DNA of 64,000 bases from Candidatus Nomurabacteria bacterium (GTDB lineage: Bacteria > Patescibacteriota > Minisyncoccia > Phycocordibacterales > UBA9973). The stretch covers positions 25,174 through 89,173 of the forward strand of contig CALRAL010000003.1 in assembly GCA_943350875.1 (NCBI GenBank). The letters are read 5' to 3'. The notes under the pieces were generated by a model. It was not told the DNA's origin. It ran no database searches and worked only from the letters and a program-made list of their open reading frames with translations. Both the position numbers and the translations under genes were made by a program. Below are positions 2,125-63,971 of this stretch, in pieces. How positions within the stretch are numbered: position 1 is the stretch's first letter; each line of letters opens with the position of its first letter.

Positions 2125-3375
2125 TTATTCTTTTTCCCCGCCTGCATCGCTATGCGAAACATTGCGGGCAGGTTCAATTATTTCAACTTTTTCTCCGTCA
2201 GTGGAAGCAAGCACTTTGCCTGCCTGCGCAGGCAGGCCATTACCTTTGATGTCTATTCTCCATCCAGTAAGTTTAGCGGCTAGACGTACATTTTGGCCAC
2301 CTTTACCGATGGCGAGTGATAATTGATCATCAGAGACTTCTACTACTGCTTTGTGTTCTTTTTCATCTACTTTAATAGAGATAACTTTGGCTGGGGAGAG
2401 GGAATTAGAAACGAATTGTTTTGGATCGGCAGTCCAAGGGATAATGTCTATTTTTTCTCCACCCAATTCTTGAGTAATAGTATTTACTCTGGTACCTTTT
2501 TGTCCAACACAAGAACCAACTGGGTCGATATGTTCATCGTTAGAGAAGACTGCTATTTTTGAGCGAGCACCTGCTTCACGAGCGATTGATTTTATCTCTA
2601 CCACGCCATTTTCTATCTCTGGTGCTTCGATGGCAAAGAGTTTCTCGATGAATTTAGGATGGGTCCTAGAAAGCCTCAAATTTATTCCTCTTGGTGAGTC
2701 TTCTACAGAATACAAATATGCGCGGATTCTCTGACCTCGGGCAAAATATTCCCCAGGGATTTGTTCCTCAGCAGGGAGGATGCCAGTTGCGCGGTTGAAA
2801 TCAATATAAACATTCCCTCTTTCCACTTTTTGCACTATGCCAGAAATAACTTCTCCTTCTTTGGTGCCATATTCGTCTATGATGGATGTACGTTCTGCTT
2901 CACGGATCTTTTGGATTATGACCTGCTTTGCAGTTTGAGCTGCGATACGTCCATAATCCTCTTTTGGATCCAGTGGAAAGATTATCTCATCATTCAGTTC
3001 CACCCCCTTTTTTATCTTTCTGGCATCTTCGAGCATGATGTGATGTTCTGCATTGAAACGGACTCTTTCATCATCACTCTTAAAGGAATATTCCCCGCCT
3101 GCATCGCTATGCGAAGCATTGCGGGCAGGAGCTTCTTCTCCTTCCTCTTCTATTTTAGCAATAGTTTCATCTACTACTATTTTCACTTGGTAGAAATCAG
3201 CTTTGCCATTCTCCAAATCAAATTTAGCCCTTATTATTTGGCCTTTTTTACCGTAATCTTTCTTGTAAGCGGCGGCCATGGCTTGCTCGATAGCGTCCAA
3301 TATTTTCTCTTTTGGAATTTTCCTTTCTTCCTCTAGTTGCTCTAATGCTGATTTGAATGTTTTTAGATCTAACAT
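2125..3375 (-). CDS. nusA: Transcription termination/antitermination factor NusA. It carries two in-frame palindromic-element insertions.
   Basis: The 416-aa ORF has a NusA N-terminal domain, S1 and tandem KH domains (GGEKIDIIPW, IGKGGQNVRLAAKLTGWRIDI). The peptide PARNxSHSDAGGE occurs twice, each encoded by a copy of a 37-bp palindromic repeat. Confidence 0.9.
   Translation of the reverse strand: MLDLKTFKSALEQLEEERKIPKEKILDAIEQAMAAAYKKDYGKKGQIIRAKFDLENGKADFYQVKIVVDETIAKIEEEGEEAPARNASHSDAGGEYSFKSDDERVRFNAEHHIMLEDARKIKKGVELNDEIIFPLDPKEDYGRIAAQTAKQVIIQKIREAERTSIIDEYGTKEGEVISGIVQKVERGNVYIDFNRATGILPAEEQIPGEYFARGQRIRAYLYSVEDSPRGINLRLSRTHPKFIEKLFAIEAPEIENGVVEIKSIAREAGARSKIAVFSNDEHIDPVGSCVGQKGTRVNTITQELGGEKIDIIPWTADPKQFVSNSLSPAKVISIKVDEKEHKAVVEVSDDQLSLAIGKGGQNVRLAAKLTGWRIDIKGNGLPAQAGKVLASTDGEKVEIIEPARNVSHSDAGGEKE
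2136..2172. repeat. Family-1 palindromic element (CCCCGCCTGCATCGCTATGCGAAACATTGCGGGCAGG), in-frame in the 3' end of nusA
   Basis: It is near-identical to the copy at 3093-3129 and related to 44821-44860. The sequence is an imperfect hairpin and is GC-rich in an AT-rich context. Confidence 0.8.
3093..3129. repeat. Family-1 palindromic element, second copy, in-frame inside nusA
   Basis: It differs from 2136-2172 at one position and encodes APARNASHSDAGGE in the nusA frame. Confidence 0.8.
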
Positions 3376-18229: not shown

Positions 18230-19750
18230 ATGAAAGACAAAGCTTTTTACGCTTGTTGTTTTGGTGTCATATTTGGGATATTTTTACGTTCTTTTATTGC
18301 AATAGACATTTATGCACTTATATTTTTTGCTTTAATTTCTATCTCTTTGCTCTTGTTTTTTAGCTTTATCTCAAAAAGAAAATTAGGAATAATATTTTCG
18401 ATTTTTCTATTTGCTTTTTGTTTAGGTGTTTTCAGGTTTCATATATATGACAAAATAAATCCTGATATTTTTGAAACAAAAGTGGGTAAAGAATTTTCTT
18501 TTTCTGGGTTAATAATAGATGAACCAAGCGTTGCAGAAAATAATCAGAAATTAATTATTGAAACAGGATTGGCTCCTCAAGGACTCGCCTTGGACTCCCT
18601 TAAGGCAAGACCTTTTCCCGCCAAAAGTCGCATTTTGGTATCTACGAATTTTGATGAGAGTTTTAAATATGGTGACGAGATAAGTTTTAAGGGAATTTTA
18701 GAAAAACCGGAGAATTTTATTACAGATCAGGGCAAAGAATTTGATTATGTAAATTATCTCAAAAAAGACGGAATATTTTACGTGATGAAATACCCAAAAA
18801 TAGATATTTTGTCCCATAGTAACGGAAGTTTTATAAAAAGTATCTTATTTTCTGCAAAAGAAAAGTTTCTGGATAAAATAAATTTTGTAATTCCAGAACC
18901 AGAGAGCTTACTCATGGGCGGACTTATTTTAGGCGAAAAATCTTCGTTTGGTCAAGAATTAAGGCAAAGTTTTGTAAATACTGGGACTATCCACATAGTG
19001 GCTTTATCTGGGTACAATGTGACAATAGTAGCCGAATGGTTTATGAAATTATTTTCTTTTTTACCTATAAATTTTAGTATTTTTGCTGGTATTTTAGCCA
19101 TCTTACTTTTTATCTTGATGACTGGAGGATCTTCCACTGCTATCAGAGCAGGGGTAATGGCAACTTTGGCTTTGATAGCCCGCGCCACTGGTAGGAATTA
19201 TGATGTGGCGCGGGCGCTTATTCTCTCTGGTGTAGTGATGCTCCTATTTAATCCACTTTTGCTAGTGTATGATGTGTCATTTCAACTATCTTTTTTGGCG
19301 ACCATTGCGGTAATATTTTTGACGCCAAAAATTGAGAAATACTTTTTTTGGGTGACGGAAAGATTTGGTCTGCGGGATGTCGTATCTATCACATTTTCTG
19401 CTTACATTTTTGTGATGCCTTTTATTTTGTATAAGATGGGGAACCTTTCGTTGGTGGCTTTACCTACAAATGTTTTGGTTCTCCCATTTATTCCGTTTAC
19501 CATGTTACTAGGATTTGTGACTGGATTTATAGGACTTATTTCAAGTATCCTAGCTATCCCTCTTGGGTATATTTCTTACTTTTTCTTACATTATGAATTA
19601 TTTATAATTAATTTATTCTCAAACATTCCATTTTCTTCCATATCTATATCAAATTTCCCATTGTTTATTACAATTTTAATTTACATAGTTTTTATTTACA
19701 AAATTTTCGGCACAGATGTTAAAAAACTTTTTACTGTTTTGCCTGAATAA
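18230..19750 (+). CDS. comEC: ComEC/Rec2 competence channel protein (DUF4131 plus competence domain) lacking the C-terminal metallo-beta-lactamase domain. It carries an in-frame family-3 insertion.
   Basis: Polytopic membrane protein with the ComEC competence motif (GTIHIVALSGYNV). The MBL domain is encoded separately at 20342..21211. Confidence 0.75.
   Translation: MKDKAFYACCFGVIFGIFLRSFIAIDIYALIFFALISISLLLFFSFISKRKLGIIFSIFLFAFCLGVFRFHIYDKINPDIFETKVGKEFSFSGLIIDEPSVAENNQKLIIETGLAPQGLALDSLKARPFPAKSRILVSTNFDESFKYGDEISFKGILEKPENFITDQGKEFDYVNYLKKDGIFYVMKYPKIDILSHSNGSFIKSILFSAKEKFLDKINFVIPEPESLLMGGLILGEKSSFGQELRQSFVNTGTIHIVALSGYNVTIVAEWFMKLFSFLPINFSIFAGILAILLFILMTGGSSTAIRAGVMATLALIARATGRNYDVARALILSGVVMLLFNPLLLVYDVSFQLSFLATIAVIFLTPKIEKYFFWVTERFGLRDVVSITFSAYIFVMPFILYKMGNLSLVALPTNVLVLPFIPFTMLLGFVTGFIGLISSILAIPLGYISYFFLHYELFIINLFSNIPFSSISISNFPLFITILIYIVFIYKIFGTDVKKLFTVLPE
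18575..18619. repeat. Family-3 palindromic element, orientation A, in-frame in comEC
   Basis: CCTCAAGGACTCGCCTTGGACTCCCTTAAGGCAAGACCTTTTCCC encodes PQGLALDSLKARPFP. Confidence 0.8.
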
Positions 19751-23780: not shown

Positions 23781-25583
23781 ATGATAAAAGAAAAAATAGA
23801 AAAATTAATAAAAGATGCGTTGAAAAGTCTCGGTCTCGAAGATCTTAATTTTGTGGTAGAACATCCAGAGGATTTGAAGAATGGAGATTATTCTACAAAT
23901 GTAGCAATGGTTTGTGCTAAAAATCTAAAAACAAATCCTAGAGAATTGGCAGAAAATATAGTTGCCGAGTTAAAAAACTCTCCCCTTGCCAAGGGGGAGG
24001 TTGGAGGGGGTCTAATACATGAAATTCAAATAGCCGGTGCTGGGTTTATCAATTTTTATCTTTCTCGTGAATTTTTTTCAAACTCCATAAAAGAAATCCT
24101 AGAACAAAAAGAAAATTGGGGTAAAAATAGTTTCCTTGCGGGGAAAAAGGTAATGGTGGAATATACAGACCCAAATCCTTTTAAACCTTTTCATATCGGG
24201 CATTTGATGAGTAATGCTATAGGTGAATCAATATCAAGAATTTTTGAATTCTCTGGAGCACATACTGTTCGTGCAAATTATCAGGGTGATGTAGGGCTTC
24301 ATGTGGCCAAAGCAATATATGGGATTTTGAATGACCCTCTCGCCTTCGACACTCCCCCTTGGCAGGAGGAGATTGGAACGATGCCTGCTTCTGTGCAGGC
24401 AGACTATATTGGGCGATTCTATGCAAAAGGCAGTGATGCTTATGAAAGTGATGAAAAAGCAAAAAATGAAATTGATGAAATAAATAAAAAAGTTTATGAA
24501 AAAAGTGACGATGAAATAAATAAAATATATAATTGGGGTAGAAGAGTCACATTAGAGGCTTTTGAAGAAATATATAAAGTTCTTGGAACAAAATTCAAAT
24601 ATTACTTTTTTGAAAGCGAGATGGCGCCTATTGGCAATAAAATAGTCCGTGCAAATATGAGTAAAATTTTTGAAGAATCAGATAACGCAATAATTTTTCA
24701 TGCCGAAACATACGATCCAAAACTCCACACTCGTGTATTTGTAACTTCAAAGAATTTACCTACATATGAAGCAAAAGAAATTGGCTTAACATTCACAAAG
24801 TTTGAAAAAGAAAATCCAGATATTTCTGTAGTAGTGACAGCACACGAGCAAGCTGAATATATGAAAGTTGTAGCGAAAGCCATCTCACTAATACACCCTG
24901 AATACGAAAACAGGATGAAACACATCACTCATGGTATGATGCGCCTAGCCTCGGGCAAGATGTCTTCTCGAAAGGGAAATGTGGTCACCGGTGAATCCCT
25001 TTTGCATGATTCGATAGATACGATAAAAGAAAAAATATCCGCCCGAGGCGGACCAGCCTTGGGCTGGAAAGAAGTAGAAGTTCAAGAAGTTTCAGAATCT
25101 GTGGGAGTATCGGCGCTTAAATATTCAATTCTTCGTTCCTCAATGGGTTCTGATATAGTTTATGATTTTGAGAAGTCCATTTCGTTTGAAGGTGATTCTG
25201 GGCCATATCTGCAATATTCTGCAATTCGTGCGAAATCAGTTTTAGCAAAAGCTGGCGATACCAACTTTGGCGGGAAAAGGTCAGACCTTAAGAATTTAGA
25301 AAGGTCTGTCCTTGAGGAGCCAAAAGAAGTTTCAAATTTAGAAAAAACCCTATATCGTTTCCCCGAAGTTGTAGTTTTGTCATATCAAAAGTTTGAACCA
25401 CATCATATTGCAACATATCTGACAGAACTTGCCTCATCATTTAACACTTTTTACACAGAAACAAAAATAATAAACGAAGCAGATAAATATTCACCATATT
25501 ATCTTGCATTGACCAAAGCATTTCTACAAACAATACAAAACGGCCTTTGGCTCCTTGGCATCACTCTGCCAGAGAAGATGTAA
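23781..25583 (+). CDS. argS: Arginine--tRNA ligase. It carries two in-frame GC-rich element insertions.
   Basis: 600 aa with HIGH (PFHIGHLMS), the DALR anticodon-binding domain and a C-terminal Met. Insertions lie at 23981-24017 and 25269-25320. Confidence 0.9.
   Translation: MIKEKIEKLIKDALKSLGLEDLNFVVEHPEDLKNGDYSTNVAMVCAKNLKTNPRELAENIVAELKNSPLAKGEVGGGLIHEIQIAGAGFINFYLSREFFSNSIKEILEQKENWGKNSFLAGKKVMVEYTDPNPFKPFHIGHLMSNAIGESISRIFEFSGAHTVRANYQGDVGLHVAKAIYGILNDPLAFDTPPWQEEIGTMPASVQADYIGRFYAKGSDAYESDEKAKNEIDEINKKVYEKSDDEINKIYNWGRRVTLEAFEEIYKVLGTKFKYYFFESEMAPIGNKIVRANMSKIFEESDNAIIFHAETYDPKLHTRVFVTSKNLPTYEAKEIGLTFTKFEKENPDISVVVTAHEQAEYMKVVAKAISLIHPEYENRMKHITHGMMRLASGKMSSRKGNVVTGESLLHDSIDTIKEKISARGGPALGWKEVEVQEVSESVGVSALKYSILRSSMGSDIVYDFEKSISFEGDSGPYLQYSAIRAKSVLAKAGDTNFGGKRSDLKNLERSVLEEPKEVSNLEKTLYRFPEVVVLSYQKFEPHHIATYLTELASSFNTFYTETKIINEADKYSPYYLALTKAFLQTIQNGLWLLGITLPEKM
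23981..24017. repeat. Family-2-type GC-rich hairpin (CTCCCCTTGCCAAGGGGGAGGTTGGAGGGGGTC), in-frame in argS
   Basis: CTCCCC/GGGGAG stem. It is related to the CCCCTTGTCAGGGGG and GGAGGGGGTTGGGGGTGG modules at 60524, 63845 and 52830. Confidence 0.6.
25269..25320. repeat. Family-3 palindromic element, orientation B, in-frame in argS
   Basis: GGCGGGAAAAGGTCAGACCTTAAGAATTTAGAAAGGTCTGTCCTTGAGGAGC encodes GGKRSDLKNLERSVLEE. Compare recJ GKRQDLKEIQGLALKS. Confidence 0.8.
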
Positions 25584-38807: not shown

Positions 38808-39710
38808 ATGTATATGGCGAAAGTCCCTGCAGTATTTAATAAAATAAATTCTCTTCGCGAGAGGTACTGGAAAGCTTTCAATAACAAAGAATCTCTAATT
38901 AAACTTGTTAGCGAGTCAGAAATTGCTGAGCAAGTGTATAACTCAAATGCTATCGAAAATAGTACTCTTACACTTGAAGAAACAGAAAAAATTTTATTAC
39001 AGATTGACCTAGATCGATATATAAGTGAGCGCGAGATTTTTGAAGCCAAAAATCTCGCGCGAGTGGTGTCATATATTGAGAAGCGAGCAAAAGAACAGGA
39101 GTTAACACTTGAAGTTGTATTATCACTTCACAAGATGCTTATTTCAAATATTCGTGATGAAATTGCAGGCAGGTTTAGAAAAGAAAAAGAATTTGTGCGA
39201 GTGGGTAGTCACATTGCTCCCGCACCGCAAGAAATACTTGAGAGGTTGGGAAATATGCTCGCAGAATATAATGCAAATAATCATGAAAATATTGTAAAAT
39301 GTATTGCACGATTGCATTTAGATTTTGAGTATATCCATCCATTTATCGATGGCAATGGTTGTATTGGTCGCGCGCTTAATAATTATCTTTTGATTCGTGA
39401 AGGATTTGTCCCCATCAATATTAAATTTATAGATCGCAAAAAATATTATGATGCATTTAAAGAATTTGATGAAAAAGGTAAAATAGAAATAATGGAAGAA
39501 ATTGTTGCCAAAGCTCTGACCAATAGTTATCACAAGCGTTTGGCATATTTAGAAGACAAGAAAATTATAACATTAGTGGAATATGCAAAATCTCAAAAAA
39601 TTTCTCATTCAAATTTGATAAATAAAGCTAAACGACAAACTATTGAAGCTTTTATGGAACGAGGGATTTGGAAAATAGGAGTTGAGTATAAGAAAAAATT
39701 ATATGAATGA
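38808..39710 (+). CDS. Fic/Doc family protein (AMPylator or toxin-like)
   Basis: 300 aa with the canonical Fic motif HPFIDGNGCIGRAL. The start may be the ATG at 38814, giving a leaderless transcript. Confidence 0.8.
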   Translation: MYMAKVPAVFNKINSLRERYWKAFNNKESLIKLVSESEIAEQVYNSNAIENSTLTLEETEKILLQIDLDRYISEREIFEAKNLARVVSYIEKRAKEQELTLEVVLSLHKMLISNIRDEIAGRFRKEKEFVRVGSHIAPAPQEILERLGNMLAEYNANNHENIVKCIARLHLDFEYIHPFIDGNGCIGRALNNYLLIREGFVPINIKFIDRKKYYDAFKEFDEKGKIEIMEEIVAKALTNSYHKRLAYLEDKKIITLVEYAKSQKISHSNLINKAKRQTIEAFMERGIWKIGVEYKKKLYE

Positions 39711-42700
39711 AGAAAATGTAAAAAATAATAAATCAGAAGTAGCTCTCAGGGAGGAGAGGGTTTTGGAATTTTGGGAGCAAAATAAAATATTTGAAAAAGT
39801 TTCAAAAAAGGTAGCGAAGAAGGGTGACTATGTATTTTATGACGGTCCGCCGACGGCCAACGGCATGCCGGGGCTACACCATGTGGAGCCACAATCTTTC
39901 AAGGATTTAATTCCTCGATACAAAACTATGCGAGGGTATAATGTCTTGCGTAAAGCGGGCTGGGATACACACGGGCTTCCAGTAGAGCTTCAAGTAGAAA
40001 AAGCGCTTGGGCTAAAATCTAAAAAAGATATTGAAAAATACGGAGTAGAACTTTTTAATCAGAAATGCAAAGAAAGTGTTTGGCAATATAAAGCAGAATG
40101 GATGAAAATGCGTACTCGCATGGGTTTCTGGACTGATCTGGAGAATGCATACGTAACTTATACGAATAATTATATTGAAGCCTTGTGGGGAGTAGTGCAA
40201 AAGGCAGATGAGAGAGGATTCTTGTATAAAGATTTCAAGATCTTGCCTTGGTGCCCTCGCTGTGGGACAGCTCTCTCTAGCCATGAGCTCAATCAGCCTG
40301 GGGCATACAAAGATGTAAAAGATCTGTCTGTTTATGTGAAATTTAAAATTATTGGTGGCAATGATGCTTTTGCGGGGTCGCTGTCTCCGTCTGTTGACGG
40401 AGCGCTGCCTCTCGGCTCGTCAGCCTGCGAGACACCCCGACAAAAGCACATTGCCACCAATTTTTACATTCTTGCTTGGACAACAACACCTTGGACTTTG
40501 CCGGGGAATGTGGCTTTGGCAGTGGGGAATGATATTGATTACGTAAAAGTGAAATTTGGTGGGGAGATTTTGATTTTAGCAGAGGCTAGACTTTCTGTTT
40601 TGGGTGGCGAATATGAAATTTTGGAAAAATTGAAAGGCAAAGATTTAATTGGTTTAGAATATGAACCACTTTTTCCATATTTGTCCGCCCAAGGCGGATC
40701 CGCCTCTGGCGGAAAAGATTTTAGTGAAAGTATAAAAAATGCTTTTAAAATTTATCCAGCAGACTTTGTGACGACCACAGACGGCACAGGAGTGGTGCAT
40801 ACAGCTGTGATGTATGGAGTGGATGATTTTGAGCTTGGAACTAAATTAAATTTACCGAAATATCATCTCGTAAATGAAGAAGGTAAATTTATAAAAGGTA
40901 CAGGATTCTTGGAGGGGCGATATGTTAAGGAAGCTGACGAGAATGGCAAGCCGACACTCGCTGTGGACATCATTGATGACTTAACCAAGCGTGGACTTTT
41001 GTTTAAAAAAGAAAATCACTTGCACAGCTATCCACATTGTTGGCGTTGTGATACACCACTTATTTATTACGCTCGGATGTCTTGGTATTTTAAGATGAGT
41101 GCGCTACGTAGCCAATTAATGGCTGGAAATGAAAAGATACATTGGGAGCCAGAACATATCAAACACGGACGTTTTGGTGAGTGGCTTGATGGTATAAAAG
41201 ACTGGGCCATTTCTCGGGACAGATATTGGGGTACACCGATACCAGTCTGGCAGAAAAAAGATGGCACATATAAAACTATCGGCTCACTTTCAGAACTAAA
41301 AAAATATACTAAAAAGTCAGGTAATAAGTATTTTGTCATGCGACATGGGGAAGCAGAAAATAATATGGGAGAATTATATAAAGTTGATCCGACTCAAAGT
41401 TTTAATCTTACTGAAAAAGGGTGTCAACAGGTTTTAGAAAATATTAAAAATTTTAAAGAAAAAGTAGATGTTATTATTTCTTCCCCATTTGAACGAACAA
41501 GAGAAACTACAAAAATAGTTTGTGAATTTTTAGGTTTTCCGTTAGATAAAGTTATTTATGATGATAGAGTGCAAGAGTGGGAAGTAAGCTCTATGTTTAA
41601 TGGTAAGACACGTAAAGAGATGAAACAATATTATGATAATGATTATATGTATGCTCCACACGAAAGTCTTGCTGATGCAGAAAGTTTTATCCATGTTGTA
41701 AAAAGAACTGGGGATTTCCTTTATGACATAGAATCTAAATATAAAGATAAAACTATTTTACTTGTTAGCCATGCTGGGGCAGGCAGGGCTATGACGTTTG
41801 TCTCGAATGGAGCTACTTTTACTGATTTACCAAATAGACCAGATATAACCAAGATGCTAGATAATGCAGAAATCAAAAAACTTGATTTCGTGCCACTTCC
41901 TCACAATCAAAATTATGAACTTGATTTTCATAAACCATATATTGATGAAATAATTTTAGAAGAAAACGGAGAACAAATGTCTCGCACACCGGAGGTGATG
42001 GATGTGTGGTTTGATTCAGGGGCTATGCCTTATGCACAGAGTCATGTGTTAGGTACTCCGATGGACTTCTCTCCAGCCAAGGCAGACTACATATCTGAAG
42101 CGATAGATCAGACTCGTGGATGGTTCTATACTTTGCATGCAGTTATAAATTTGGTAAATAATAAATCAAGTAATGCTTTTAAAAATGTTATTTGTCTCGG
42201 GCATATTTTGGATGCGAATGGGCAGAAAATGTCTAAATCAAAAGGCAATGTAGTGGACCCATGGATGATGTTTGATAAATACGGGGCGGACACCCTCCGC
42301 TTATGGATGTATTCTGTGAATCAGCCAGGGGAGTCAAAGAACTTTGACGAGAAAAATGTTTTGGAATTAAATAGACAAGTTTTTGGCTTGCTTTATAATA
42401 TTGTGGCTTTTTATGAGCTTTATCGGGATAAAGATTTAGAAATTATACAAGGACAGTCCTTAAGAGAGTTTCCCCAAGGACTGTCCTTTAAAAATATTTT
42501 AGATATTTGGATTCTTGCTAGATTAAACGAGTTGATAGAACTCACTACTAAAAATCTAGATAGTTTTAAACTTTTAGAGCCGACTCGAGCTATGAAAGAT
42601 TTTATAAATGATCTCTCTACATGGTATCTGCGTCGTTCTAGAGATAGATTAAAAGATGAAGATAAAAATGCAAAACTTACACTGTATTTTGTATTAAAAA

Positions 42701-43347
42701 ATCTGGCAAAACTTATGGCACCATTTGCTCCCTTTTCTGCGGAAGATATCTGGCAGAAATTGAAAAATGAGGAAGATGTAGAAAGTGTGCATTTGGTAGA
42801 TTGGCCAAAAGTGTCAAAGGGCATCTTTGACATGTTTAGCAAAAAAGAGGAGAAAGTCTTGAAAAATATGCAAATTGTGCGTGATATTGTTTCTCTTGGG
42901 CTTGAAGCGAGGCAGAAAGCGGGGATAAAAGTCCGTCAACCGCTCGCTACGCTCAAGTGTAAAGTAGAAAGTGGAAAGTTGTCGAGTGAATACTTGGAAC
43001 TTATTAAAGACGAGTTGAACGTAAAAGAAGTATTATTAGAGCCTCGAGCCTCGAACCTAGAAACTAATGTAGAACTCGATACAAGAATAACTCCAGAATT
43101 AAAATCTGAAGGAGATTATAGGGAGCTTGTGCGAGCAATACAGGATATGAGGAAAAAGATGGGGCTGACTCCGAGTGATGTGGTGTCTTTCTCCTTTGAC
43201 ACAAATGAAGAAGGAAAAAAGTTAATCCAGAATTTTGAAAAGGAACTAAAAAAAGTAATTCTTGCTTCAGAAATAAAATTCATGGCAAATGATGGCGACC
43301 CAATCGTTATAGATGAACTAATATTTAAAATAAAAGTGGTAAAATAA
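39682..43347 (+). CDS. ileS: Isoleucine--tRNA ligase with an inserted histidine-phosphatase (PGAM-like) domain and two short in-frame palindromic-element insertions
   Basis: 1221 aa with HVEPQ (HIGH-like), TTTPWTLPGN, HKPYIDE, KMSKSKGN and the anticodon-binding domain. The phosphatase insertion is bounded by FVMRHGEAENN...SSPFERTRET...LLVSHAG at about 41300-41925. Confidence 0.9.
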   Translation: MSIRKNYMNEENVKNNKSEVALREERVLEFWEQNKIFEKVSKKVAKKGDYVFYDGPPTANGMPGLHHVEPQSFKDLIPRYKTMRGYNVLRKAGWDTHGLPVELQVEKALGLKSKKDIEKYGVELFNQKCKESVWQYKAEWMKMRTRMGFWTDLENAYVTYTNNYIEALWGVVQKADERGFLYKDFKILPWCPRCGTALSSHELNQPGAYKDVKDLSVYVKFKIIGGNDAFAGSLSPSVDGALPLGSSACETPRQKHIATNFYILAWTTTPWTLPGNVALAVGNDIDYVKVKFGGEILILAEARLSVLGGEYEILEKLKGKDLIGLEYEPLFPYLSAQGGSASGGKDFSESIKNAFKIYPADFVTTTDGTGVVHTAVMYGVDDFELGTKLNLPKYHLVNEEGKFIKGTGFLEGRYVKEADENGKPTLAVDIIDDLTKRGLLFKKENHLHSYPHCWRCDTPLIYYARMSWYFKMSALRSQLMAGNEKIHWEPEHIKHGRFGEWLDGIKDWAISRDRYWGTPIPVWQKKDGTYKTIGSLSELKKYTKKSGNKYFVMRHGEAENNMGELYKVDPTQSFNLTEKGCQQVLENIKNFKEKVDVIISSPFERTRETTKIVCEFLGFPLDKVIYDDRVQEWEVSSMFNGKTRKEMKQYYDNDYMYAPHESLADAESFIHVVKRTGDFLYDIESKYKDKTILLVSHAGAGRAMTFVSNGATFTDLPNRPDITKMLDNAEIKKLDFVPLPHNQNYELDFHKPYIDEIILEENGEQMSRTPEVMDVWFDSGAMPYAQSHVLGTPMDFSPAKADYISEAIDQTRGWFYTLHAVINLVNNKSSNAFKNVICLGHILDANGQKMSKSKGNVVDPWMMFDKYGADTLRLWMYSVNQPGESKNFDEKNVLELNRQVFGLLYNIVAFYELYRDKDLEIIQGQSLREFPQGLSFKNILDIWILARLNELIELTTKNLDSFKLLEPTRAMKDFINDLSTWYLRRSRDRLKDEDKNAKLTLYFVLKNLAKLMAPFAPFSAEDIWQKLKNEEDVESVHLVDWPKVSKGIFDMFSKKEEKVLKNMQIVRDIVSLGLEARQKAGIKVRQPLATLKCKVESGKLSSEYLELIKDELNVKEVLLEPRASNLETNVELDTRITPELKSEGDYRELVRAIQDMRKKMGLTPSDVVSFSFDTNEEGKKLIQNFEKELKKVILASEIKFMANDGDPIVIDELIFKIKVVK
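40351..40460. repeat. MITE-like 110-bp GC-rich element with perfect 13-bp terminal inverted repeats (ATTGGTGGCAATG / CATTGCCACCAAT), in-frame in ileS just upstream of TTTPWTLP
   Basis: The terminal and nested inverted repeats (CTCCGTC/GACGGAG) are visible directly. It encodes IGGNDAFAGSLSPSVDGALPLGSSACETPRQKHIATN. Confidence 0.7.
40685..40717. repeat. Family-4 palindromic element (CCGCCCAAGGCGGATCCGCCTCTGGCGGAAAAG), in-frame in ileS
   Basis: It shares GGATCCGCCTTGGGCGGAAAA with the copies at 57605-57628 and 62428-62451 and encodes SAQGGSASGGKD. Confidence 0.7.
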
Positions 43348-52091: not shown

Positions 52092-53607
52092 TTTTTATAT
52101 TACCACTACTTTGCCTTATGTAAATGCTCCATTGCATTTAGGACACGCTACGGAGATAATACGTGCAGATACTATAGCTCGATTTAAAAAAATACAAGGT
52201 TTCGATGTGTTTTTTAATACTGGAACAGATGAACATGGGCAAAAAATTTATGAATCTGCAGAAAAGGCTGGTAAGGGAGTAAAAGAATATGTTGATTATT
52301 ATGCGGATTTATACAAGAGAACTTTAGAGAGGTTTGGTGTATTGTCAGATGTGCATTATATCCGGACGACAGATGAAAATCATACAAAAGCCGCAAAAGA
52401 ATTTTGGGCAAGATGTAAAGACAAGGGTTTTATATACAAAAAGAATTACCAGGCAAAGTATTGTGTTGGTTGCGAGGAAGAGAAAACTGAAAGTGAACTG
52501 GTTGATGGCAAATGCCCTGAACATGATAGGGTTCCGGATTTAATAAACGAAGAGAACTACTTTTTTAAATTTAGTGCTTTTACAGATAAATTAGAGAATT
52601 TCTATAAAGAAAATTCAGATTTTATCGTTCCTAATTATAGGATGAATGAGATGCGTGAGTTCATAAAACATGGACTCAATGATTTTAGTATTTCTCGCTT
52701 AAAATCAAAGATGTCTTGGGGTATAGATGTGCCGGGAGATGAAGATCATGTCATGTATGTCTGGTTTGATGCATTAACAAATTATATTTCTACATTAGGA
52801 TGGCCGGATAAAACTCCCCTCCTTATGGAGGAGGGGGTTGGGGGTGGTAATTCAAAAAATCACCACCTCGCCCTAAAGGGCTCTCCTCCTCAACAAGGAG
52901 GAGAGGAATCTCTATTTTCAAAGTACTGGATAAATGGTAATCCAACACAATATTGTGGTAAAAATAATACTCGTTTTCAAGGTCTTATGTGGCAGGCAAT
53001 GCTCTTGGCAGTAGATTTGCCATTAACACATCAGATTATCGTTGATGGTTTTATTTTAGGAGAAGGAGGTATAAAAATGTCTAAGACTCTTGGCAACACA
53101 ATAGATCCACTAGATTTAATACAAGAATATGGGACCGATGGACTCCGATATTTCGTATTACGAGATTTTCATTCTTTTGAGGATACCGCGGTTTCAAAAG
53201 ATAGGCTTAAAGAATCATATAATGCAAATCTGGCGAATGGGCTAGGGAATCTGACTAGTCGCATTTTGACTTTATCTGAGAAATATTTAGATAATGGAAT
53301 AAAAGAAACGAAATTTTCTATACCACAAGTAAATGATTTCTTAAATACTTTTGACATACAGCTTGCAATGAAAGTTATTTTTGATTTGATAAACGATTTG
53401 GATAAACAAATACAGAAAACAGAACCGTTCAAAGTTATAAAAGTGAATGAAGAAGAAGGAAAGAAATTAATTAAAAGTCATGTAAAGCAACTCCTTACCA
53501 TCGCGAAATCTTTAGCTCCATTTTTGCCTGAGACCTCAGAAAAAATAGTAGAACTTATTAAACAAAATAAAAAACCAGAAAAGCCCCTATTTTTAAGGAA
53601 AGAATAA
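52039..53607 (+). CDS. metG: Methionine--tRNA ligase with an in-frame family-2 GC-rich element insertion
   Basis: LHLGHA (HIGH) and KMSKT motifs. The insertion at 52813-52915 encodes DKTPLLMEEGVGGGNSKNHHLALKGSPPQQGGEESLF. Confidence 0.9.
   Translation: MMLKSIKVLLEQKMKKNSFYITTTLPYVNAPLHLGHATEIIRADTIARFKKIQGFDVFFNTGTDEHGQKIYESAEKAGKGVKEYVDYYADLYKRTLERFGVLSDVHYIRTTDENHTKAAKEFWARCKDKGFIYKKNYQAKYCVGCEEEKTESELVDGKCPEHDRVPDLINEENYFFKFSAFTDKLENFYKENSDFIVPNYRMNEMREFIKHGLNDFSISRLKSKMSWGIDVPGDEDHVMYVWFDALTNYISTLGWPDKTPLLMEEGVGGGNSKNHHLALKGSPPQQGGEESLFSKYWINGNPTQYCGKNNTRFQGLMWQAMLLAVDLPLTHQIIVDGFILGEGGIKMSKTLGNTIDPLDLIQEYGTDGLRYFVLRDFHSFEDTAVSKDRLKESYNANLANGLGNLTSRILTLSEKYLDNGIKETKFSIPQVNDFLNTFDIQLAMKVIFDLINDLDKQIQKTEPFKVIKVNEEEGKKLIKSHVKQLLTIAKSLAPFLPETSEKIVELIKQNKKPEKPLFLRKE
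52813..52915. repeat. Family-2 composite GC-rich hairpin element (CCCCTCC..GGAGGGG, GGTGGTAATT..AATCACCACC, GCCCTAAAGGGC, CTCCTCC..GGAGGAG), in-frame in metG
   Basis: Collinear with the intergenic copy at 60509-60655 and with the ftsK copy at 62891-62975. All three are read in frame. Confidence 0.8.
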
Positions 53608-53611
53608 ATTA

Positions 53612-53636
53612 CACAGGGTTCCCCTGTGTAATTTAT
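53612..53636. repeat. REP-like 24-bp palindrome TTACACAGGGTTCCCCTGTGTAAT, copy 1
   Basis: Identical palindromes occur at 54228-54252 and 54941-54965, flanking the RAYT gene. Confidence 0.8.
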
Positions 53637-57538: not shown

Positions 57539-57604
57539 TTATACTTACCTTATGCTTAAAAGGTGTATCTTTTTGAGCTTTAAAATTAACTTATTTCAGC
57601 CATA

Positions 57605-57628
57605 GGCTGATCCGCCTTGGGCGGAAAA
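57605..57628. repeat. Family-4 palindromic element (GGCTGATCCGCCTTGGGCGGAAAA) immediately upstream of the 57632 start codon
   Basis: Matches 62428-62451 in ftsK and 40685-40717 in ileS. Confidence 0.7.
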
Positions 57629-60508: not shown

Positions 60509-60655
60509 CCCCCTAAATCCCCCTTGTCAGGGGGACTTTCTATTTTTCCTCCCCTCCTTAATCAAGGAGGGGAATGAGGGGTGGTAATTAAGAAATTTAA
60601 TAAATCACCACCTCGCCCTAAAGGGCACTCCTCCTCCACAAGGAGGAGATGATCC
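60509..60655. repeat. Family-2 composite GC-rich hairpin element, intergenic copy between efp and recA
   Basis: Its modules are CCCCTTGTCAGGGGG; CCCCTCCTTAATCAAGGAGGGG; GGTGGTAATTAAG...ATCACCACC; GCCCTAAAGGGC; and CTCCTCCTCCACAAGGAGGAG. It is collinear with the metG in-frame copy. Confidence 0.8.
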
Positions 60656-60657
60656 AA

Positions 60658-61701
60658 TTATGCCTCCTCCACAAATTTCTTGCGGATTTCCTTTAATATT
60701 TCATTTGCAATTTTTGTATTCTCTTTCAAGAATGTGCGAGTGGAGTCATAGCCTACACCTAGTTTCATTTTTTCTTTTGATTCACCACTTGGCATATAAA
60801 AGTATGAATTCCCAGTTTTCTCTACTATTTTAAATTTCTCTCCGAGGGCTATTATTTCTCCTTCTTTAGAAATTCCTTCGTTGTAGATGATATCAAACTC
60901 TGTTTGTTTAAACGGCGCGGCGACTTTGTTCTTGACCACTTTTATACGAGTTCTAGAACCCACTATTTCCTCTCCTTTTTTGATTTGGGCAATTTTACGT
61001 ATATCTAGGCGAACTGAAGTGTAGAATTTGAGAGCTTTACCTCCTGGGGTAGTCTCTGGGTTACCAAACATCACTCCTATCTGCATGCGGATCTGGTTTA
61101 TGAATATGACAGCTGTTTTAGAATGAGAAACTATCGCTGTGAGCTTGCGGAGCGCTTGAGACATCAGACGGGCTTGTTTACCCACGTGATATGCTCCCAT
61201 ATCGCCTTCTATTTCATCTTTTGGGGTGAGTGCTGCTACAGAGTCCACGACTATCACATCCACTTTACCTGTACGCACAAGGCTGTCCACTATGTCGAGA
61301 GCTTGTTCACCTGTGTCTGGTTGAGAAATGAGCAAGTCATTTATATTTACTCCGAGCTTTTTTGTGTAATCAGGATCCATCGCATGTTCGGCATCTATGT
61401 ATGCACAAACCCCGCCGAGTTTTTGCGCCTCAGCTACTATATGGAGCGAGAGGGTAGTCTTGCCGGAGGACTCTGGCCCGAATATCTCAATTATTCTTCC
61501 ACGTGGTATGCCTCCGATGCCGAGCGCCATGTCGAGCCCTATCGAGCCAGTCGGTATCGCATTTATGTGCACTTTTGGAGTTTCACCTAGTTTCATTATT
61601 GAACCCTCGCCGAATTTTGCTTGAATGGCCTTTAATGTATCATCTAGCCCTGTTGCTCCCATTGATTTGTCTTCTTTCTGCTCTTTTTTCTTTTTCATCA
61701 T
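60658..61701 (-). CDS. recA: Recombinase RecA
   Basis: [10 protein letters not shown] Walker A and full-length RecA signature motifs. Confidence 0.95.
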
Positions 61702-61816
61702 AATCTTATCCTTCTTAGGATTACAGGATTTGCTTTTTTGAGCTGGTCTGGCTGGGATAGGGACCCAGAGAACCGAGGACCCGAAAAAAAGAAAAGCCTG
61801 TGATCCTAATTATTAA

Positions 61817-62167
61817 CTAATAAACTAATTTATAATTTTTTTCATCAACATTCCCAAATTTATCGCTTGCTTTTATATTTACCACATTATACCCCGAAAG
61901 TAGAGCTATCGTTTCCTTAAAATTTCCACTCTGATCTACTGATATTTCTCGACCATTCAAGTAGAGTTTGTTGGCATTTTTGGCATTTCCAGCAATATTC
62001 ATAATACTTTCAGTTATTTTTGTCCCATCTACTATATTTACGTCTCTTATTTTTACTCCTGTTATCAGATTTTGTGAACGGTAAATTCCATAGAATATTA
62101 TTATTAAGAAAAACACTGCTAGCCCCATCATTTTCAATATCCTTTTGTTAGTTGGTTCTGTACTCAT
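61817..62167 (-). CDS. Small membrane-anchored protein, possibly a FtsQ/POTRA-like division protein
   Basis: 116 aa with an N-terminal TM helix. It sits immediately downstream of ftsK on the same strand. This is a weak call. Confidence 0.25.
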   Translation of the reverse strand: MSTEPTNKRILKMMGLAVFFLIIIFYGIYRSQNLITGVKIRDVNIVDGTKITESIMNIAGNAKNANKLYLNGREISVDQSGNFKETIALLSGYNVVNIKASDKFGNVDEKNYKLVY

Positions 62168-62168
62168 T

Positions 62169-63971
62169 TTATTGCATTATATTATTTCCAGATTCATCGT
62201 GTTCTATTTTTTGTAATACTTCCCTTGGTTTTGCTCCATCGCCAGGGCCTATCACTTCGCGTTCTTCGAGTTGGTCCATGAGTCGGGCTGCTCTAGCGTA
62301 GCCCAGCTTTAATTTCCTTTGTAAATACGAAGTAGATGCCTTGCCAGCTTCTATGACACAAGCTCGAGCTTCTTCATACATTTCATCATCTGATTCATTA
62401 TTTTCATCTAAGTTTTCCCAGCCAAAGGCTGGTCCGCCTTGGGCGGAAAATATCGATTTGTCAGCTGAGATACTTCCGTTACTGAGTGATATCTCTTCTG
62501 TTATTTCATCTCGATATTTATCTGCCAAATACTTGACCACTTTCTTTACTTCATTTTCAGAAATAAAGGCAGACTGGAGTCTTTCTGGTTGAGCTTCTCC
62601 CGAAGAGTAGAGCATGTCTCCAGCTCCGAGGAGCTTTTCTGCTCCGCCGGTGTCAAGTATAGTGCGAGAATCTATTTGGGAAGACACTTTTAGAGCGATG
62701 CGGGCAGGGATGTTGGCCTTGATGAGTCCAGTAATGACGTTTACCTCTGGGCGTTGAGTGGAAAGTATGAGGTGTATGCCCACAGCTCGAGACATTTGAG
62801 CCAGGCGCACGATAGCGGACTCGAGCTCTCTAGGATAGGAGCTCATTATATCTGCCAATTCATCCAATATTATGACTATATATGGCAAACGATCACCACC
62901 CCCTGCTCCCTCCTCCACAAAGAGGGGGTCTGAGTTTCCCCGCCTCGATGAGGAGGGGACGGAAGGGGTGGTCTTTCCCCATACATTATTGTGATAACTT
63001 TCTATATCTCGTACTGATTCCGCTTCCAAGATGTCATAACGGCGATCCATTTCTTTGGCCGCCCATTTAAGGGCGAGTATTGCCTTTTTGGCTTCAGTTA
63101 TGACAGGGGTGAGTAAGTGAGGGATCTTGTTATAAAGGGTGAGTTCTACTCGTTTTGGATCTATCATTATTAATTTCAAATCATCTGGACTATTTCTGTA
63201 TAACAAGGATGTGATGATAGCGTGTATTGAGACAGATTTTCCAGAGCCAGTAGTTCCTGCGATGAGAACGTGTGGCATCTTGGCCAAGTTCCCAAAGCTG
63301 GCTCTGCCAGATATTCCACGCCCGAGCGCAATAGTGAGTGGTTTAGTAGAATTTTGGAATTTCTCATCGGAAAGGAGAGTAGCGAGGCCCACGGTTGATT
63401 TTACTTTATTTGGGATTTCGATACCTACGAGGGATTTGCCAGGAATTGGTGCTTCTATGCGGATAGGGTGTGCGGCTAGGGCTAGGGCGAGGTCACTTTG
63501 AAGTCCGACTATGCGGGAGAGTTTCACTCCTTCGGCTGGTTTTAGCGCATACCTCGTCACTGTGGGGCCAATGGTTATCTCATCCATCTCGACTTCGATA
63601 CCGAAGTTCTGTAAGGTACGTTTTATTATATTTGCATTTGCTTTTATGTCTCCAGTATTTGGTTTGCCTTGATCGCCTTCGAGGAGGGAGAGTGGGGGAG
63701 GTGTATAAGCTGAAAATAGTCCAGACTTTATTTTTTTAATCGGCATCTCATCTTCTTCCTCTGTTTTTTCTTCTTTTTTATTTTTTCCTACACCTAATGC
63801 TTTTTTAATTTTTTCTCCTGTTGTCTCATTTCCCTCCTCCCCTGACAAGGGGAGGAAAGAGGAGGGGTTATTTACCCCCTCTGCTTCCGGTATCTCCCCC
63901 GAGGCCGAGGGCGAAATGTATCCATTTTTTTTCTTCCAAATCATCCCCCACACTTTTTTCAAAAATGGCAT
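62169..63971 (-). CDS. ftsK: DNA translocase FtsK/SpoIIIE with three in-frame palindromic-element insertions
   Basis: Walker A GTTGSGKSVSI, the motor domain, and a C-terminal gamma winged-helix. Insertions lie at 62428-62451, 62891-62975 and 63826-63895. Confidence 0.9.
   Translation of the reverse strand: MPFLKKVWGMIWKKKNGYISPSASGEIPEAEGVNNPSSFLPLSGEEGNETTGEKIKKALGVGKNKKEEKTEEEDEMPIKKIKSGLFSAYTPPPLSLLEGDQGKPNTGDIKANANIIKRTLQNFGIEVEMDEITIGPTVTRYALKPAEGVKLSRIVGLQSDLALALAAHPIRIEAPIPGKSLVGIEIPNKVKSTVGLATLLSDEKFQNSTKPLTIALGRGISGRASFGNLAKMPHVLIAGTTGSGKSVSIHAIITSLLYRNSPDDLKLIMIDPKRVELTLYNKIPHLLTPVITEAKKAILALKWAAKEMDRRYDILEAESVRDIESYHNNVWGKTTPSVPSSSRRGNSDPLFVEEGAGGGDRLPYIVIILDELADIMSSYPRELESAIVRLAQMSRAVGIHLILSTQRPEVNVITGLIKANIPARIALKVSSQIDSRTILDTGGAEKLLGAGDMLYSSGEAQPERLQSAFISENEVKKVVKYLADKYRDEITEEISLSNGSISADKSIFSAQGGPAFGWENLDENNESDDEMYEEARACVIEAGKASTSYLQRKLKLGYARAARLMDQLEEREVIGPGDGAKPREVLQKIEHDESGNNIMQ
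62428..62451. repeat. Family-4 palindromic element, in-frame in ftsK
   Basis: GGCTGGTCCGCCTTGGGCGGAAAA encodes, on the minus strand, FSAQGGPAFGW. Confidence 0.7.
62891..62975. repeat. Family-2 GC-rich hairpin element, in-frame in ftsK
   Basis: ACCACCCC...GGGGTGGT outer stem with inner CCCTCC/GGAGGG stems. It encodes ...PLFVEEGAGGGD. Compare the metG insertion PLLMEEGVGGGN. Confidence 0.75.
63826..63895. repeat. Family-2-type GC-rich nested hairpin (CCCTCCTC-CCCTGACAAGGGG-AGGAAA-GAGGAGGG), in-frame near the ftsK 5' end
   Basis: Encodes NNPSSFLPLSGEEGNE. It shares the CCCCTGACAAGGGG module with 60524-60538. Confidence 0.65.

What the first reader, a model, noticed from the sequence alone, without database searches (positions are those of the whole stretch)
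40351..40460. A MITE-like 110-bp element with perfect 13-bp terminal inverted repeats is inserted in-frame in ileS
ATTGGTGGCAATG...CATTGCCACCAAT bounds a GC-rich segment with nested inverted repeats, for example CTCCGTC/GACGGAG. It sits immediately upstream of the universally conserved TTTPWTLP motif. It is read through in frame and adds about 36 aa. A spurious alternate-frame ORF, 40352..40546, arises from it. This differs from families 1-4 but follows the same in-frame insertion principle.
Basis: seen in the sequence. Interest (0 to 1): 0.7.

Follow-up and report, generated by a model that had tools for sequence, protein, structure and literature searches.

The report
Structured hairpin repeat inside ileS
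The 111-bp palindrome in the isoleucyl-tRNA synthetase gene is one copy of a widespread, apparently undescribed family of folded GC-rich repeats that sit in frame inside essential genes of ultrasmall (Patescibacteria) bacteria, and whose nucleic-acid fold, not the encoded peptide, is what evolution conserves.

Summary
Window 40351-40461 is 111 bp (37 codons), 59% G+C in a 38% G+C gene. It has perfect 13-bp inverted ends, folds very strongly (z = -9) and is read through in frame in ileS.

It is a real repeat, but not a classical MITE. It belongs to a family I call type W, with at least 52 distinct copies in metagenomes. Each copy has a conserved 68-nt three-way-junction core closed by a stem whose sequence is specific to that copy. 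I found no target-site duplication.

Of 47 copies away from contig ends, 44 lie inside long open reading frames. Hosts include UvrD, TGT, peptide deformylase, TsaD, RecG, LeuRS, KsgA and IleRS, with 22 copies in each orientation.

A sister family, type C, has at least 120 copies in Patescibacteria genomes and uses the same host sites. One type C copy lies at about 61715-61809 in this window.

In those copies the core is 85% identical, against 50% at flanking third codon positions. The stems diverge but stay paired (21 compensated pairs).

The closest known analogue is the Rickettsia palindromic elements. How these elements spread is unknown.

The parts
40351..40461 (+). Whole type W element: 111 bp, 37 codons, translated as IGGNDAFAGSLSPSVDGALPLGSSACETPRQKHIATN
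   Evidence: A leave-one-out nhmmer profile built from 48 other copies hits 40353-40457 with 92.9 bits, E = 3e-28.
40351..40371 (+). P1 5' arm, the copy-specific closing stem. It contains the perfect 13-mer 40351-40363, a bulged A at 40364, then TGCTTTT.
   Evidence: The stem covaries across copies and across ileS orthologues.
40372..40439 (+). Conserved 68-nt core. P2 is 40373-40378 paired with 40434-40439. The P3 hairpin is 40380-40408 (loop TGTT). The P4 hairpin is 40409-40431 (loop CGTC).
   Evidence: The core pattern matched 63 metagenome stretches. Pair counts: P3 99.6% and P4 98.7% paired with compensatory changes; 0 of 500 shuffles reached the observed values.
40440..40461 (+). P1 3' arm: ACAAAAGCA followed by the perfect 13-mer at 40449-40461
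39703..43347 (+). Host gene ileS (1214 aa from the ATG). The element sits at the turn of the beta-hairpin just before the WTTTPW motif of the editing domain.
   Evidence: Pfam tRNA-synt_1, Anticodon_1 and DUF5915; PDB alignment to 8c8u; AlphaFold2 model.
61715..61809 (-). Copy of the sister family, type C, in the same window. It is intergenic, between ORF 61817-62167 and recA 60658-61701. Core: TTCGGGTCCTCGG..CCAGACCAGCTC.
   Evidence: nhmmer with the type C profile gave 36.9 bits, E = 1e-10. Fold energy -38.7 kcal/mol.

Best explanation
The segment is one copy of a dispersed family (type W) of structured hairpin elements found in Paceibacteria/Nomurabacteria-type Patescibacteria. The elements are about 110-120 nt long and G+C-rich, and none carries a gene that could move it.

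Each copy has four helices:
- P1: a closing stem of about 23 bp whose sequence is specific to the copy.
- P2: an invariant helix, CGGGGU/ACCCCG.
- P3 and P4: two hairpins whose loops (UGCU, CGUC) and junction are conserved while their stems covary.

The whole hairpin, arms included, entered ileS long ago at the tip of the beta-hairpin that leads into the editing domain. It has been inherited vertically since. It is translated as a 32-37 aa Gly/Ser/Pro/Ala-rich, probably disordered, surface loop that the enzyme tolerates.

What is maintained is the nucleic-acid fold, not the peptide.

Most likely mechanism (inferred): the family is a selfish, RPE-like repeat. It is copied or maintained through a folded single-stranded intermediate (DNA or RNA) that an unidentified trans-acting factor recognises by the core. 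Stem pairing is kept either by selection for that fold or by hairpin-templated correction. The inverted arms allow the element to flip in place.

Shown: family membership, the fold and its covariation, in-frame residence in many housekeeping genes in both orientations, orthologous persistence, and slow core evolution.

Inferred: translation, the selfish nature, the single-strand intermediate, the trans factor, and flipping.
For: Family. The core pattern gave 63 metagenome stretches, 52 of them distinct, always with a 68-nt core. The window copy scores 92.9 bits against a profile built without it.

Fold. On 49 copies, 89.7% of cells are paired against 72% in shuffles. 32 pairs show double changes, and 0 of 500 shuffles reach the observed value. 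Slid controls give 38-52%.

Residence in genes.
- 44 copies lie in long ORFs, 22 in each orientation. Of the 8 that do not, 5 touch a contig end.
- Host families were confirmed by Pfam: UvrD, TsaD, TGT, Pep_deformylase, RecG, LeuRS, RrnaAD.

Sister family type C.
- At least 120 genome copies, 82 of them in ORFs including ileS.
- Its arms also covary.
- C and W occur on the same contigs.

Old age and constraint in ileS. About 17 of 120 relatives that share 55-63% identity carry W-type inserts. Six orthologous copies compare as follows:
- Core identity: 0.85.
- Flanking ileS nucleotides: 0.72.
- Flanking third codon positions: 0.50.
- Arms: 0.55.
The arms nevertheless stay paired: 21 of 43 pairs carry compensated double changes.

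Not a peptide-level feature. The opposite orientation encodes a different peptide at the same host sites.

Whole hairpin is the inserted unit. Empty uvrD sites lack both arms.

Flipping. At the uvrD site, L164 (core +) and L128/L144 (core -) have homologous arms.

Tolerated location. The insert replaces a 2-residue turn in solved IleRS 8c8u. In the AlphaFold2 model it is a loop with pLDDT below 50 between two strands.
Against: - No transposase, reverse transcriptase or other mobilising gene was identified, and no recent insertion or empty-site polymorphism was seen.
- A core that evolves more slowly than the surrounding essential coding sequence at orthologous sites is not expected of a passive selfish remnant. 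It fits a host-level function better.
- Copies were retrieved by exact core matches, which inflates apparent core conservation. Only the ileS orthologues L190-L192 were found independently of the core.
- Translation is inferred from open frames alone; there are no transcript or peptide data.
- The neighbour-joining tree of IleRS shows a patchy distribution, so single versus repeated gain is unresolved.
- Transition-type mismatches in the stems are biased towards A.C over G.T in both families. This is unexplained.
Confidence: 0.55

Rival explanations
1. Host-useful nucleic-acid signal. The folded core on its closing stem is a recognition site for a host system. At the DNA level this could be uptake, recombination/repair, replication priming or chromosome organisation. 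At the RNA level it could be processing or stability. It sits inside ORFs because these genomes have almost no intergenic space, and the in-frame peptide is the price paid.
For: - Core nucleotides are more conserved than the flanking essential coding sequence at orthologous sites, and the stems are kept paired by compensatory change.
- Loops and junctions are conserved across genomes.
- There is no orientation preference relative to the host gene (22:22). This suits a DNA-level signal.
- Some type C copies are intergenic.
Against: - No partner is known.
- Density is low: roughly one extra copy per 50-100 kb in the sampled loci.
- Most orthologous host sites are empty in related genomes (72 of 120 IleRS), so no individual copy is needed.
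- Two or three different families, and tandem pairs, occupy the same loops. That looks like colonisation rather than design.
- An mRNA-level role is hard to reconcile with both orientations occurring at one site.
Confidence: 0.25
2. Classical MITE. The segment is a deletion derivative of an insertion sequence. It would be defined by conserved terminal inverted repeats, moved by a DDE transposase and flanked by a target-site duplication.
For: It is small, has no coding capacity of its own, has perfect 13-bp inverted ends and is multi-copy. One type C subfamily (arms GCCTCGCCTGATGCTTTTG / CAAAAGCATACAGGCTCGGC) does share long arms across several unrelated loci.
Against: The terminal 13-mers of the window copy occur nowhere else in the window and differ in every non-orthologous family member. 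Conservation is highest in the centre and lowest at the ends, the opposite of a MITE. There is no target-site duplication. No parent IS was seen.
Confidence: 0.07
3. Lineage-specific protein insertion. The extra loop would be selected for what the peptide does in IleRS, and the palindromy of its DNA would be incidental.
For: A similar peptide occurs at the same loop in about 17 related IleRS. This loop is a general hotspot for length variation.
Against: - The same nucleotide core occurs in unrelated proteins and in the reverse orientation, where it encodes a different peptide.
- Compensatory stem changes alter the amino acids (SPSVDGA, SPRARGA, SGSADPA and so on).
- The fold z-score is -9.
- The AlphaFold2 model gives a low-confidence loop.
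Confidence: 0.03
4. Intervening sequence. The hairpin would be removed from the mRNA (intron-like or RNase-processed and religated) or bypassed by the ribosome, so it would never be translated.
For: The closing stem brings the two ends together, as in excised elements. Patescibacteria are known for introns in rRNA and tRNA genes (PMC11665869; bioRxiv 10.1101/2025.07.03.662931).
Against: - Every type W copy that sits inside a gene, away from contig ends, keeps the host frame open, always in the same phase per orientation.
- No copy was seen with a stop or frameshift inside a recognisable gene.
- No Rfam intron or ribozyme family matches.
- 111 nt is an exact multiple of three.
Confidence: 0.04

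Closest known systems
Rickettsia palindromic elements (RPE; also found in Wolbachia). Sources: Ogata et al. 2000 and 2002 as summarised in PMC10969869, plus PMC1779305 and PMC1458961.
   Same: [quoted passage not shown]
- Inserted in frame in unrelated housekeeping genes.
- Some inserts are ancient and shared by a whole clade, for example the RPE-7-derived insert in the aminoacyl-tRNA synthetase subunit PheT.
- The means of spread is unknown.
   Different: - A different phylum, and no sequence relation was tested.
- Here the closing stem is copy-specific and only the internal three-way-junction core is conserved.
- Both orientations occur at the same host site.
- The core evolves more slowly than the flanking coding sequence.
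- Almost all type W copies are intragenic, whereas about 10% of RPEs are in R. bellii (53 of 526; PMC1458961).
REP / REPIN elements with RAYT transposases (PMC3733652; the details of REPINs are from my own knowledge)
   Same: Short G+C-rich palindromes that form long hairpins, persist for long periods, and are thought to be recognised in folded single-stranded form.
   Different: REPs are extragenic, 20-40 nt long, carry GTAG/CGTC tags and have conserved arms. Here the arms vary, the elements are intragenic and translated, and no RAYT was looked for or seen.
MITEs such as Correia, ERIC, BOX/RUP and the Bordetella BRE (PMC3184786, PMC10969869)
   Same: Small, non-autonomous, multi-copy and hairpin-forming. 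Some are fused in frame to ORFs; BRE lies inside about 9 genes.
   Different: MITEs are defined by conserved terminal inverted repeats and target-site duplications. Neither is found here.
Integron attC sites (my own knowledge)
   Same: Recombination sites defined by the structure of a folded single strand, with variable sequence and conserved structural features.
   Different: attC sites conserve their outer R boxes and vary in the centre, which is the opposite layout. They flank gene cassettes and are not translated.
G+C-rich palindromic clusters and double-hairpin elements in fungal mitochondrial genes (my own knowledge)
   Same: G+C-rich mobile hairpins in an A+T-rich compact genome, sometimes in frame in protein genes.
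   Different: They occur in an organelle and are much shorter. A conserved multi-helix core with a copy-specific stem is not described for them.

Membership tests
Type W element family (defined here) | 68-nt core GCGGGGTCGCTGTCT-stem-TGCT-stem-AGCGCTGCCTCTC-stem-CGTC-stem-TGCGAGACACCCCG | tested here: met
   A leave-one-out profile gives 92.9 bits, E = 3e-28, at 40353-40457. The pattern match is exact.
Type W element family (defined here) | Self-complementary closing stem of about 20-25 bp with a one-base bulge on the 5' arm | tested here: met
   13 + 8 bp of P1 arm pairing (a further 6 bp, P2, lie in the core), with a bulged A at 40364. The family register has a conserved bulge column.
Classical MITE | Terminal inverted repeats conserved among copies | tested here: not met
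   The ends differ in every non-orthologous copy, while the centre is invariant.
Classical MITE | Target-site duplication flanking the element | tested here: not met
   The flanks are AAAATT and TTTTAC, with no direct repeat. Comparison of empty and filled uvrD sites shows no duplication.
Classical MITE | Dispersed multiple copies with no transposase gene inside | tested here: met
   63 metagenome stretches; the element is 111 bp.
Classical MITE | A related autonomous IS with matching ends | not tested
RPE-like protein-coding palindromic repeats | Palindromic repeat of about 100-150 bp present in frame in many unrelated housekeeping genes | tested here: met
RPE-like protein-coding palindromic repeats | Insertion at positions compatible with the host protein fold | tested here: met
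   The insert replaces a 2-residue beta-turn of solved IleRS. In the AlphaFold2 model it is a low-confidence loop between two strands. This was tested for ileS only.
RPE-like protein-coding palindromic repeats | Sequence homology to the Rickettsia RPE-1 to RPE-10 consensus sequences | not testable with these tools
   No RPE profiles or sequences were available, and the key paper PMC186582 is not held. Filed as an analogue, not a member.
REP / REPIN-RAYT | Extragenic 20-40 nt palindromes with a GTAG or CGTC tag and a cognate RAYT gene | tested here: not met
   The elements are intragenic, 111 nt long and carry no terminal tag. The presence of a RAYT gene was not tested.
Any curated RNA family (Rfam 15) | Score at or above the family gathering threshold | tested here: not met
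   There was no hit in the window at gathering thresholds. On the element itself only sub-threshold miRNA and snoRNA hits appeared (E >= 0.29). Type C loci gave none.

The most novel reading that the evidence does not exclude
Types W and C, and further families seen in the same loops, would represent an undescribed class of structure-defined genetic element. In this reading they are folded single-strand modules (a three-way-junction core on a programmable closing stem). They are under purifying selection at the nucleotide level while embedded in frame in essential genes. They can invert in place, and a dedicated trans-acting factor still to be found recognises them. That would make them either a new mobilisation system or a host-level DNA/RNA signal written inside coding sequence.
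Probability: 0.3. Interest if true: 0.85.

Novelty: new variant of a known kind. Interest (0 to 1): 0.7.

Why it matters
In-frame palindromic repeats in housekeeping genes have been treated as a near-unique oddity of Rickettsia. These results show the same phenomenon in the Candidate Phyla Radiation, at scale, with two or more families repeatedly using the same protein loops.

The anatomy is different from RPEs and MITEs. An invariant multi-helix core sits on a closing stem that is specific to each copy and covaries. The core evolves more slowly than the essential gene around it.

This gives a tractable case for two questions. How do small structured elements spread without a visible transposase? 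Can coding sequence carry a second, structural layer of information?

There are practical consequences too:
- These inserts inflate and distort protein alignments, phylogenies and structure predictions for Patescibacteria.
- They create spurious ORFs.
- They could serve as lineage markers.

Tried and rejected
- **Second copy in the window.** The 13-mer with up to 2 mismatches and a sensitive blastn of the whole element found nothing. Family membership only appeared after the collection scans.
- **Protein search with the insert plus flanks** (A2). It returned only short fragments, because hit lengths track query length. It was uninformative.
- **Profile search of 1.84 billion representatives**. 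Top extra hits such as P0168 and P0239 are unrelated repeat proteins that match TITPWTLD by chance. No non-IleRS host was found this way.
- **One arm as native target sequence.** I considered that one arm is native sequence and the other its inverted duplicate made at insertion. I rejected this because empty uvrD sites lack both arms.
- **Core swapping inside resident arms.** I considered this because ileS type W and type C-A arms share TGATGCTTTT/AAAAGCA. It is not needed: the arm part next to the core (RCTTTT/AAAAGY) is semi-conserved family-wide.
- **Strand of function from wobble pairs.** The result is inconclusive. A.C outnumbers G.T in the arms of both families, yet P3 has a conserved T.G on the same strand.
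- **Neighbour-joining tree of 120 IleRS** to decide between one gain and many. The pattern is patchy and the tree poorly resolved.
- **Known RNAs.** By inspection the element does not resemble a tRNA, hammerhead ribozyme or group II intron domain V. Rfam gave no support.
- **Close relative with an empty site.** None exists in the databases searched; the nearest IleRS is 63% identical.
- **Literature.** Text searches for the core sequences and for such elements in Patescibacteria found nothing relevant. Ogata et al. 2002 is not held.
Full report
**1. The observation**

The sequence is as described, with one correction to the end coordinate.
- ATTGGTGGCAATG is at 40351-40363. Its exact reverse complement is at 40449-40461, so the unit is 111 bp and equals 37 codons of the ileS frame.
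- The inverted repeat continues inward, giving 28-nt arms at 79% complementarity. Nested hairpins are present.
- The single strand folds to -67.1 kcal/mol as RNA (z = -9.2) and -42.4 kcal/mol as DNA (z = -9.9). None of 200 dinucleotide shuffles does as well.
- G+C is 59% in a 38% gene.
- The alternate-frame ORF 40352-40546 is a mechanical by-product.
- Within the 64-kb window the element is single-copy.
- There is no flanking direct repeat.

**2. It is an insertion relative to most IleRS**

The source is a 150-kb metagenome contig (ENA ERZ27280321). Protein relatives are labelled Nomurabacteria, Paceibacteria or Patescibacteria.

Most orthologues read KFKxxGxENTYILAWTTTPW at this point. The window has 32 extra residues there.

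Against the closest solved IleRS (8c8u), the query aligns as residues 2-139 to chain 78-213 and residues 174-317 to chain 216-345. The insert therefore replaces a two-residue turn.

An AlphaFold2 model places strands at segment residues 131-137 and 175-181. Between them is a loop with pLDDT below 50. This fits a tolerated surface loop at the tip of the beta-hairpin that leads into the editing domain. The model is of moderate quality (mean pLDDT 69).

**3. Other lineages carry a related hairpin at the same place**

Several IleRS fragments (P0001, P0014, P0044, P0022) have an insert of similar peptide at the same loop. Their DNA also folds as a hairpin, but with different outer stems.

**4. Sister family, type C**

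The motif shared by those inserts is CTCAGGTCCTCGG, a gap of 5-35 nt, then CCAGACCATTC. All hits were Patescibacteria, often with several per genome.

The layout is:
- a variable arm of 15-30 nt,
- TTTT(T/C),
- the core with a variable apical hairpin,
- (G/A)AAAA,
- the reverse complement of the arm.

The arms differ between copies but pair within each copy. All 23 arm pairs show changes on both sides, and 0 of 500 shuffles reach the observed covariation.

82 of 120 copies lie in ORFs that stay open for at least 40 codons on both sides. Of these, 65 are co-oriented with the core as I wrote it and 17 are opposite. Several of these ORFs are ileS at this very loop.

One type C subfamily shares long arms across unrelated loci, so arms can travel with the core.

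The window contains a near-canonical type C copy at about 61715-61809 on the minus strand, just upstream of recA.

**5. The window element belongs to a second family, type W**

Its own core pattern is GCGGGGTCGCTG, a gap of 30-60 nt, then GAGACACCCCG. It matched 63 metagenome stretches, 52 of them distinct. All but one of the 63 matches (L162, a longer match that was left out) have a 68-nt core.

A profile built without the window copy scores the window copy at 92.9 bits, E = 3e-28.

The alignment and pair counts support a three-way junction:
- **P1:** copy-specific, about 23 bp, with a conserved one-base bulge.
- **P2:** CGGGGT/ACCCCG, invariant.
- **P3:** GCTGTCT-NNNNN-TGCT-NNNNN-AGCGCTGC, 99.6% paired, with the apical five pairs covarying.
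- **P4:** CTCTC-NNNN-CGTC-NNNN-TGCGAG, 98.7% paired, with the apical pairs covarying.

Overall 89.7% of cells are paired, against 72% in shuffles and 38-52% when partners are slid. 32 pairs have double changes.

The search pattern fixed only 23 end bases. Conservation of the junction and the loops is therefore a real result.

No Rfam family matches either type.

**6. Where type W copies sit**

44 of 52 distinct copies lie in long ORFs. Of the other eight, five touch a contig end.

Orientation is 22:22. With one exception (L187), the phase within each orientation is the same:
- In the + orientation the core reads AGSLSPxxxGALPLGSSACETPR.
- In the - orientation it reads RGVSQADGPRGSAPRARGDSDPA.

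The consensus core is nevertheless open in all six frames.

Pfam confirms the hosts:
- UvrD, at two sites
- TsaD
- TGT
- peptide deformylase, in both orientations
- RecG
- LeuRS
- RsmA/KsgA

Types C and W use the same host loops, occur on the same contigs, and are sometimes tandem in uvrD. A third family (..ERTLGRSDGDGQRKFS..FRGESEN) was seen in the same uvrD and ksgA loops.

**7. Age and constraint in ileS**

The nearest full-length IleRS is only 63% identical. Among 120 relatives, the loop states are:

| Loop state | Number of IleRS |
|---|---|
| Short loop, no insert | 72 |
| W-type insert, including diverged ones | about 17 |
| C-type insert | about 13 |
| Other inserts | the rest |

A neighbour-joining tree shows a patchy pattern and does not settle the number of gains.

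DNA of three W-bearing orthologues found only through protein similarity (L190-L192), plus L163 and L127, allows a comparison of rates:

| Region compared | Mean pairwise identity |
|---|---|
| Element core | 0.85 |
| Flanking ileS nucleotides | 0.72 |
| Flanking third codon positions | 0.50 |
| Element arms | 0.54-0.57 |

Each copy still has a near-perfect stem, for example GGTGGCAATG/CATTGCCACC, GGTAAAAATG/CATTTTTACC and GGCGGAGGAAC/GTTCCTCCGCC. RNAalifold on the six orthologues finds 43 pairs, 21 of them with compensated double changes.

So the copy is old. Its stem pairing is actively kept, and its core changes more slowly than the essential gene around it.

**8. Anatomy of insertion, and flipping**

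Empty uvrD sites (for example KILEIWDKKESVLSEIAVLYRANFQS) lack both arms. The whole hairpin is therefore the inserted unit, and neither arm is recycled target sequence.

At that site L164 has the core in the + orientation, while L128 and L144 have it in the - orientation. Their arms are homologous (GACAAC...GTTGTC). The simplest reading is inversion of the element in place through its own inverted arms. This is an inference from a few sequences.

**9. What it is**

The features match the known kind called protein-coding palindromic repeats, whose paradigm is the Rickettsia palindromic elements. RPEs have these properties:
- They are 100-150 bp long.
- They occur in both intergenic and coding regions.
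- They are inserted in frame in housekeeping genes.
- Some are ancient; one is fixed in the aminoacyl-tRNA synthetase subunit PheT.
- How they spread is unknown (PMC10969869, PMC1779305, PMC1458961).

The present element differs in four ways:
- Its ends are copy-specific.
- It has a conserved multi-helix core.
- It occurs in both orientations at one site.
- Its core evolves more slowly than the flanks.

It fails the defining tests of a MITE: conserved terminal repeats and a target-site duplication.

A peptide-level function is excluded by the orientation data and by compensatory changes that alter the amino acids.

An intron-like or bypassed element is unlikely, because every intragenic copy keeps the host frame.

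**10. Mechanism, committed**

Most likely (about 0.55) this is a selfish, non-autonomous element. It would be recognised through its folded single strand by a factor not yet found, and translated as a harmless loop.

The main rival (about 0.25) is a host-useful DNA or RNA signal that has to live in coding sequence because the genome is so compact. The slow core evolution at orthologous sites is the strongest point in its favour.

**11. Limits**

- Copies were collected by exact core matches, apart from the ileS orthologues.
- There are no expression data and no complete census per genome.
- No candidate mobilising gene was found.
- The bias towards A.C over G.T mismatches in the arms is unexplained.
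- Text searches of the held literature found no description of these elements. This does not prove that none exists.

Noticed in passing
window 41332-41835 (IleRS aa 544-711): A complete histidine-phosphatase domain (Pfam His_Phos_1, E = 2e-23) is inserted inside IleRS between the two halves of the catalytic domain. All 120 closest full-length relatives have it. It is a fixed domain fusion of this clade and its role is unknown.
   Followed up: partly
window 40681-40716 (inside ileS); also 25029-25070, 57587-57628, 62409-62450: A short G+C-rich double palindrome, TCCGCCnnnGGCGGATCCGCCnnnGGCGGA, is translated in ileS as GGSASGGK. It has four copies in the window (family D1; fold). The same SASGGK peptide appears at the ileS loop of other genomes (P0025, P0328).
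   Followed up: partly
window 42442-42495 (inside ileS): Another in-frame palindrome, AAGGACAGTCCTT...AAGGACTGTCCTT (13-bp stem, -20 kcal/mol), encodes IIQGQSLREFPQGLSFKN. The one gene therefore carries at least three different hairpin inserts.
   Followed up: no
window 61715-61809 (- strand): A type C element lies between a small ORF (61817-62167) and recA (60658-61701), in the recA leader region.
   Followed up: partly
window 16563-16608 and 18574-18619: A pair of 46-nt repeats, 87% alike (family D10): TCCTCAAGGACTTGTCTTGGACCCTCTAAAGGCAAGACCTTTCCCC. Their ends loosely resemble the type C core (CCTCA-GG..CAAGACCTTTC). They may be a diverged relative.
   Followed up: partly
window 52849-52907 and 60594-60652; 2134-2172 and 3091-3129; 53607-53635, 54227, 54942, 59862: Further short G+C-rich palindromic repeat families (D7, D11, D4).
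   Followed up: no
L131 about 2736-2894; L082 about 863-1040: Type C and type W elements sit side by side in the same uvrD loop, giving ..QVLGNNPQTIRKSTPGYAKENKAGVSLRGVSQADGPRG...
   Followed up: partly
L123, L063, L118 (uvrD and ksgA loops): A third insert family with the peptide ..LERTLGRSDGDGQRKFSAENFRGESEN.. occupies the same loops as types C and W.
   Followed up: no
L003 3001-4275 and 4272-6788 (GCA_016188455.1): ileS is called as two overlapping ORFs in this Taylorbacteria MAG. The split lies downstream of the loop studied here. It could be a frameshift, an assembly error or a genuinely split gene.
   Followed up: no
window 38808-39710 and 39703: A Fic-domain ORF ends 8 bases after the ileS start codon, so the two genes overlap.
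   Followed up: no
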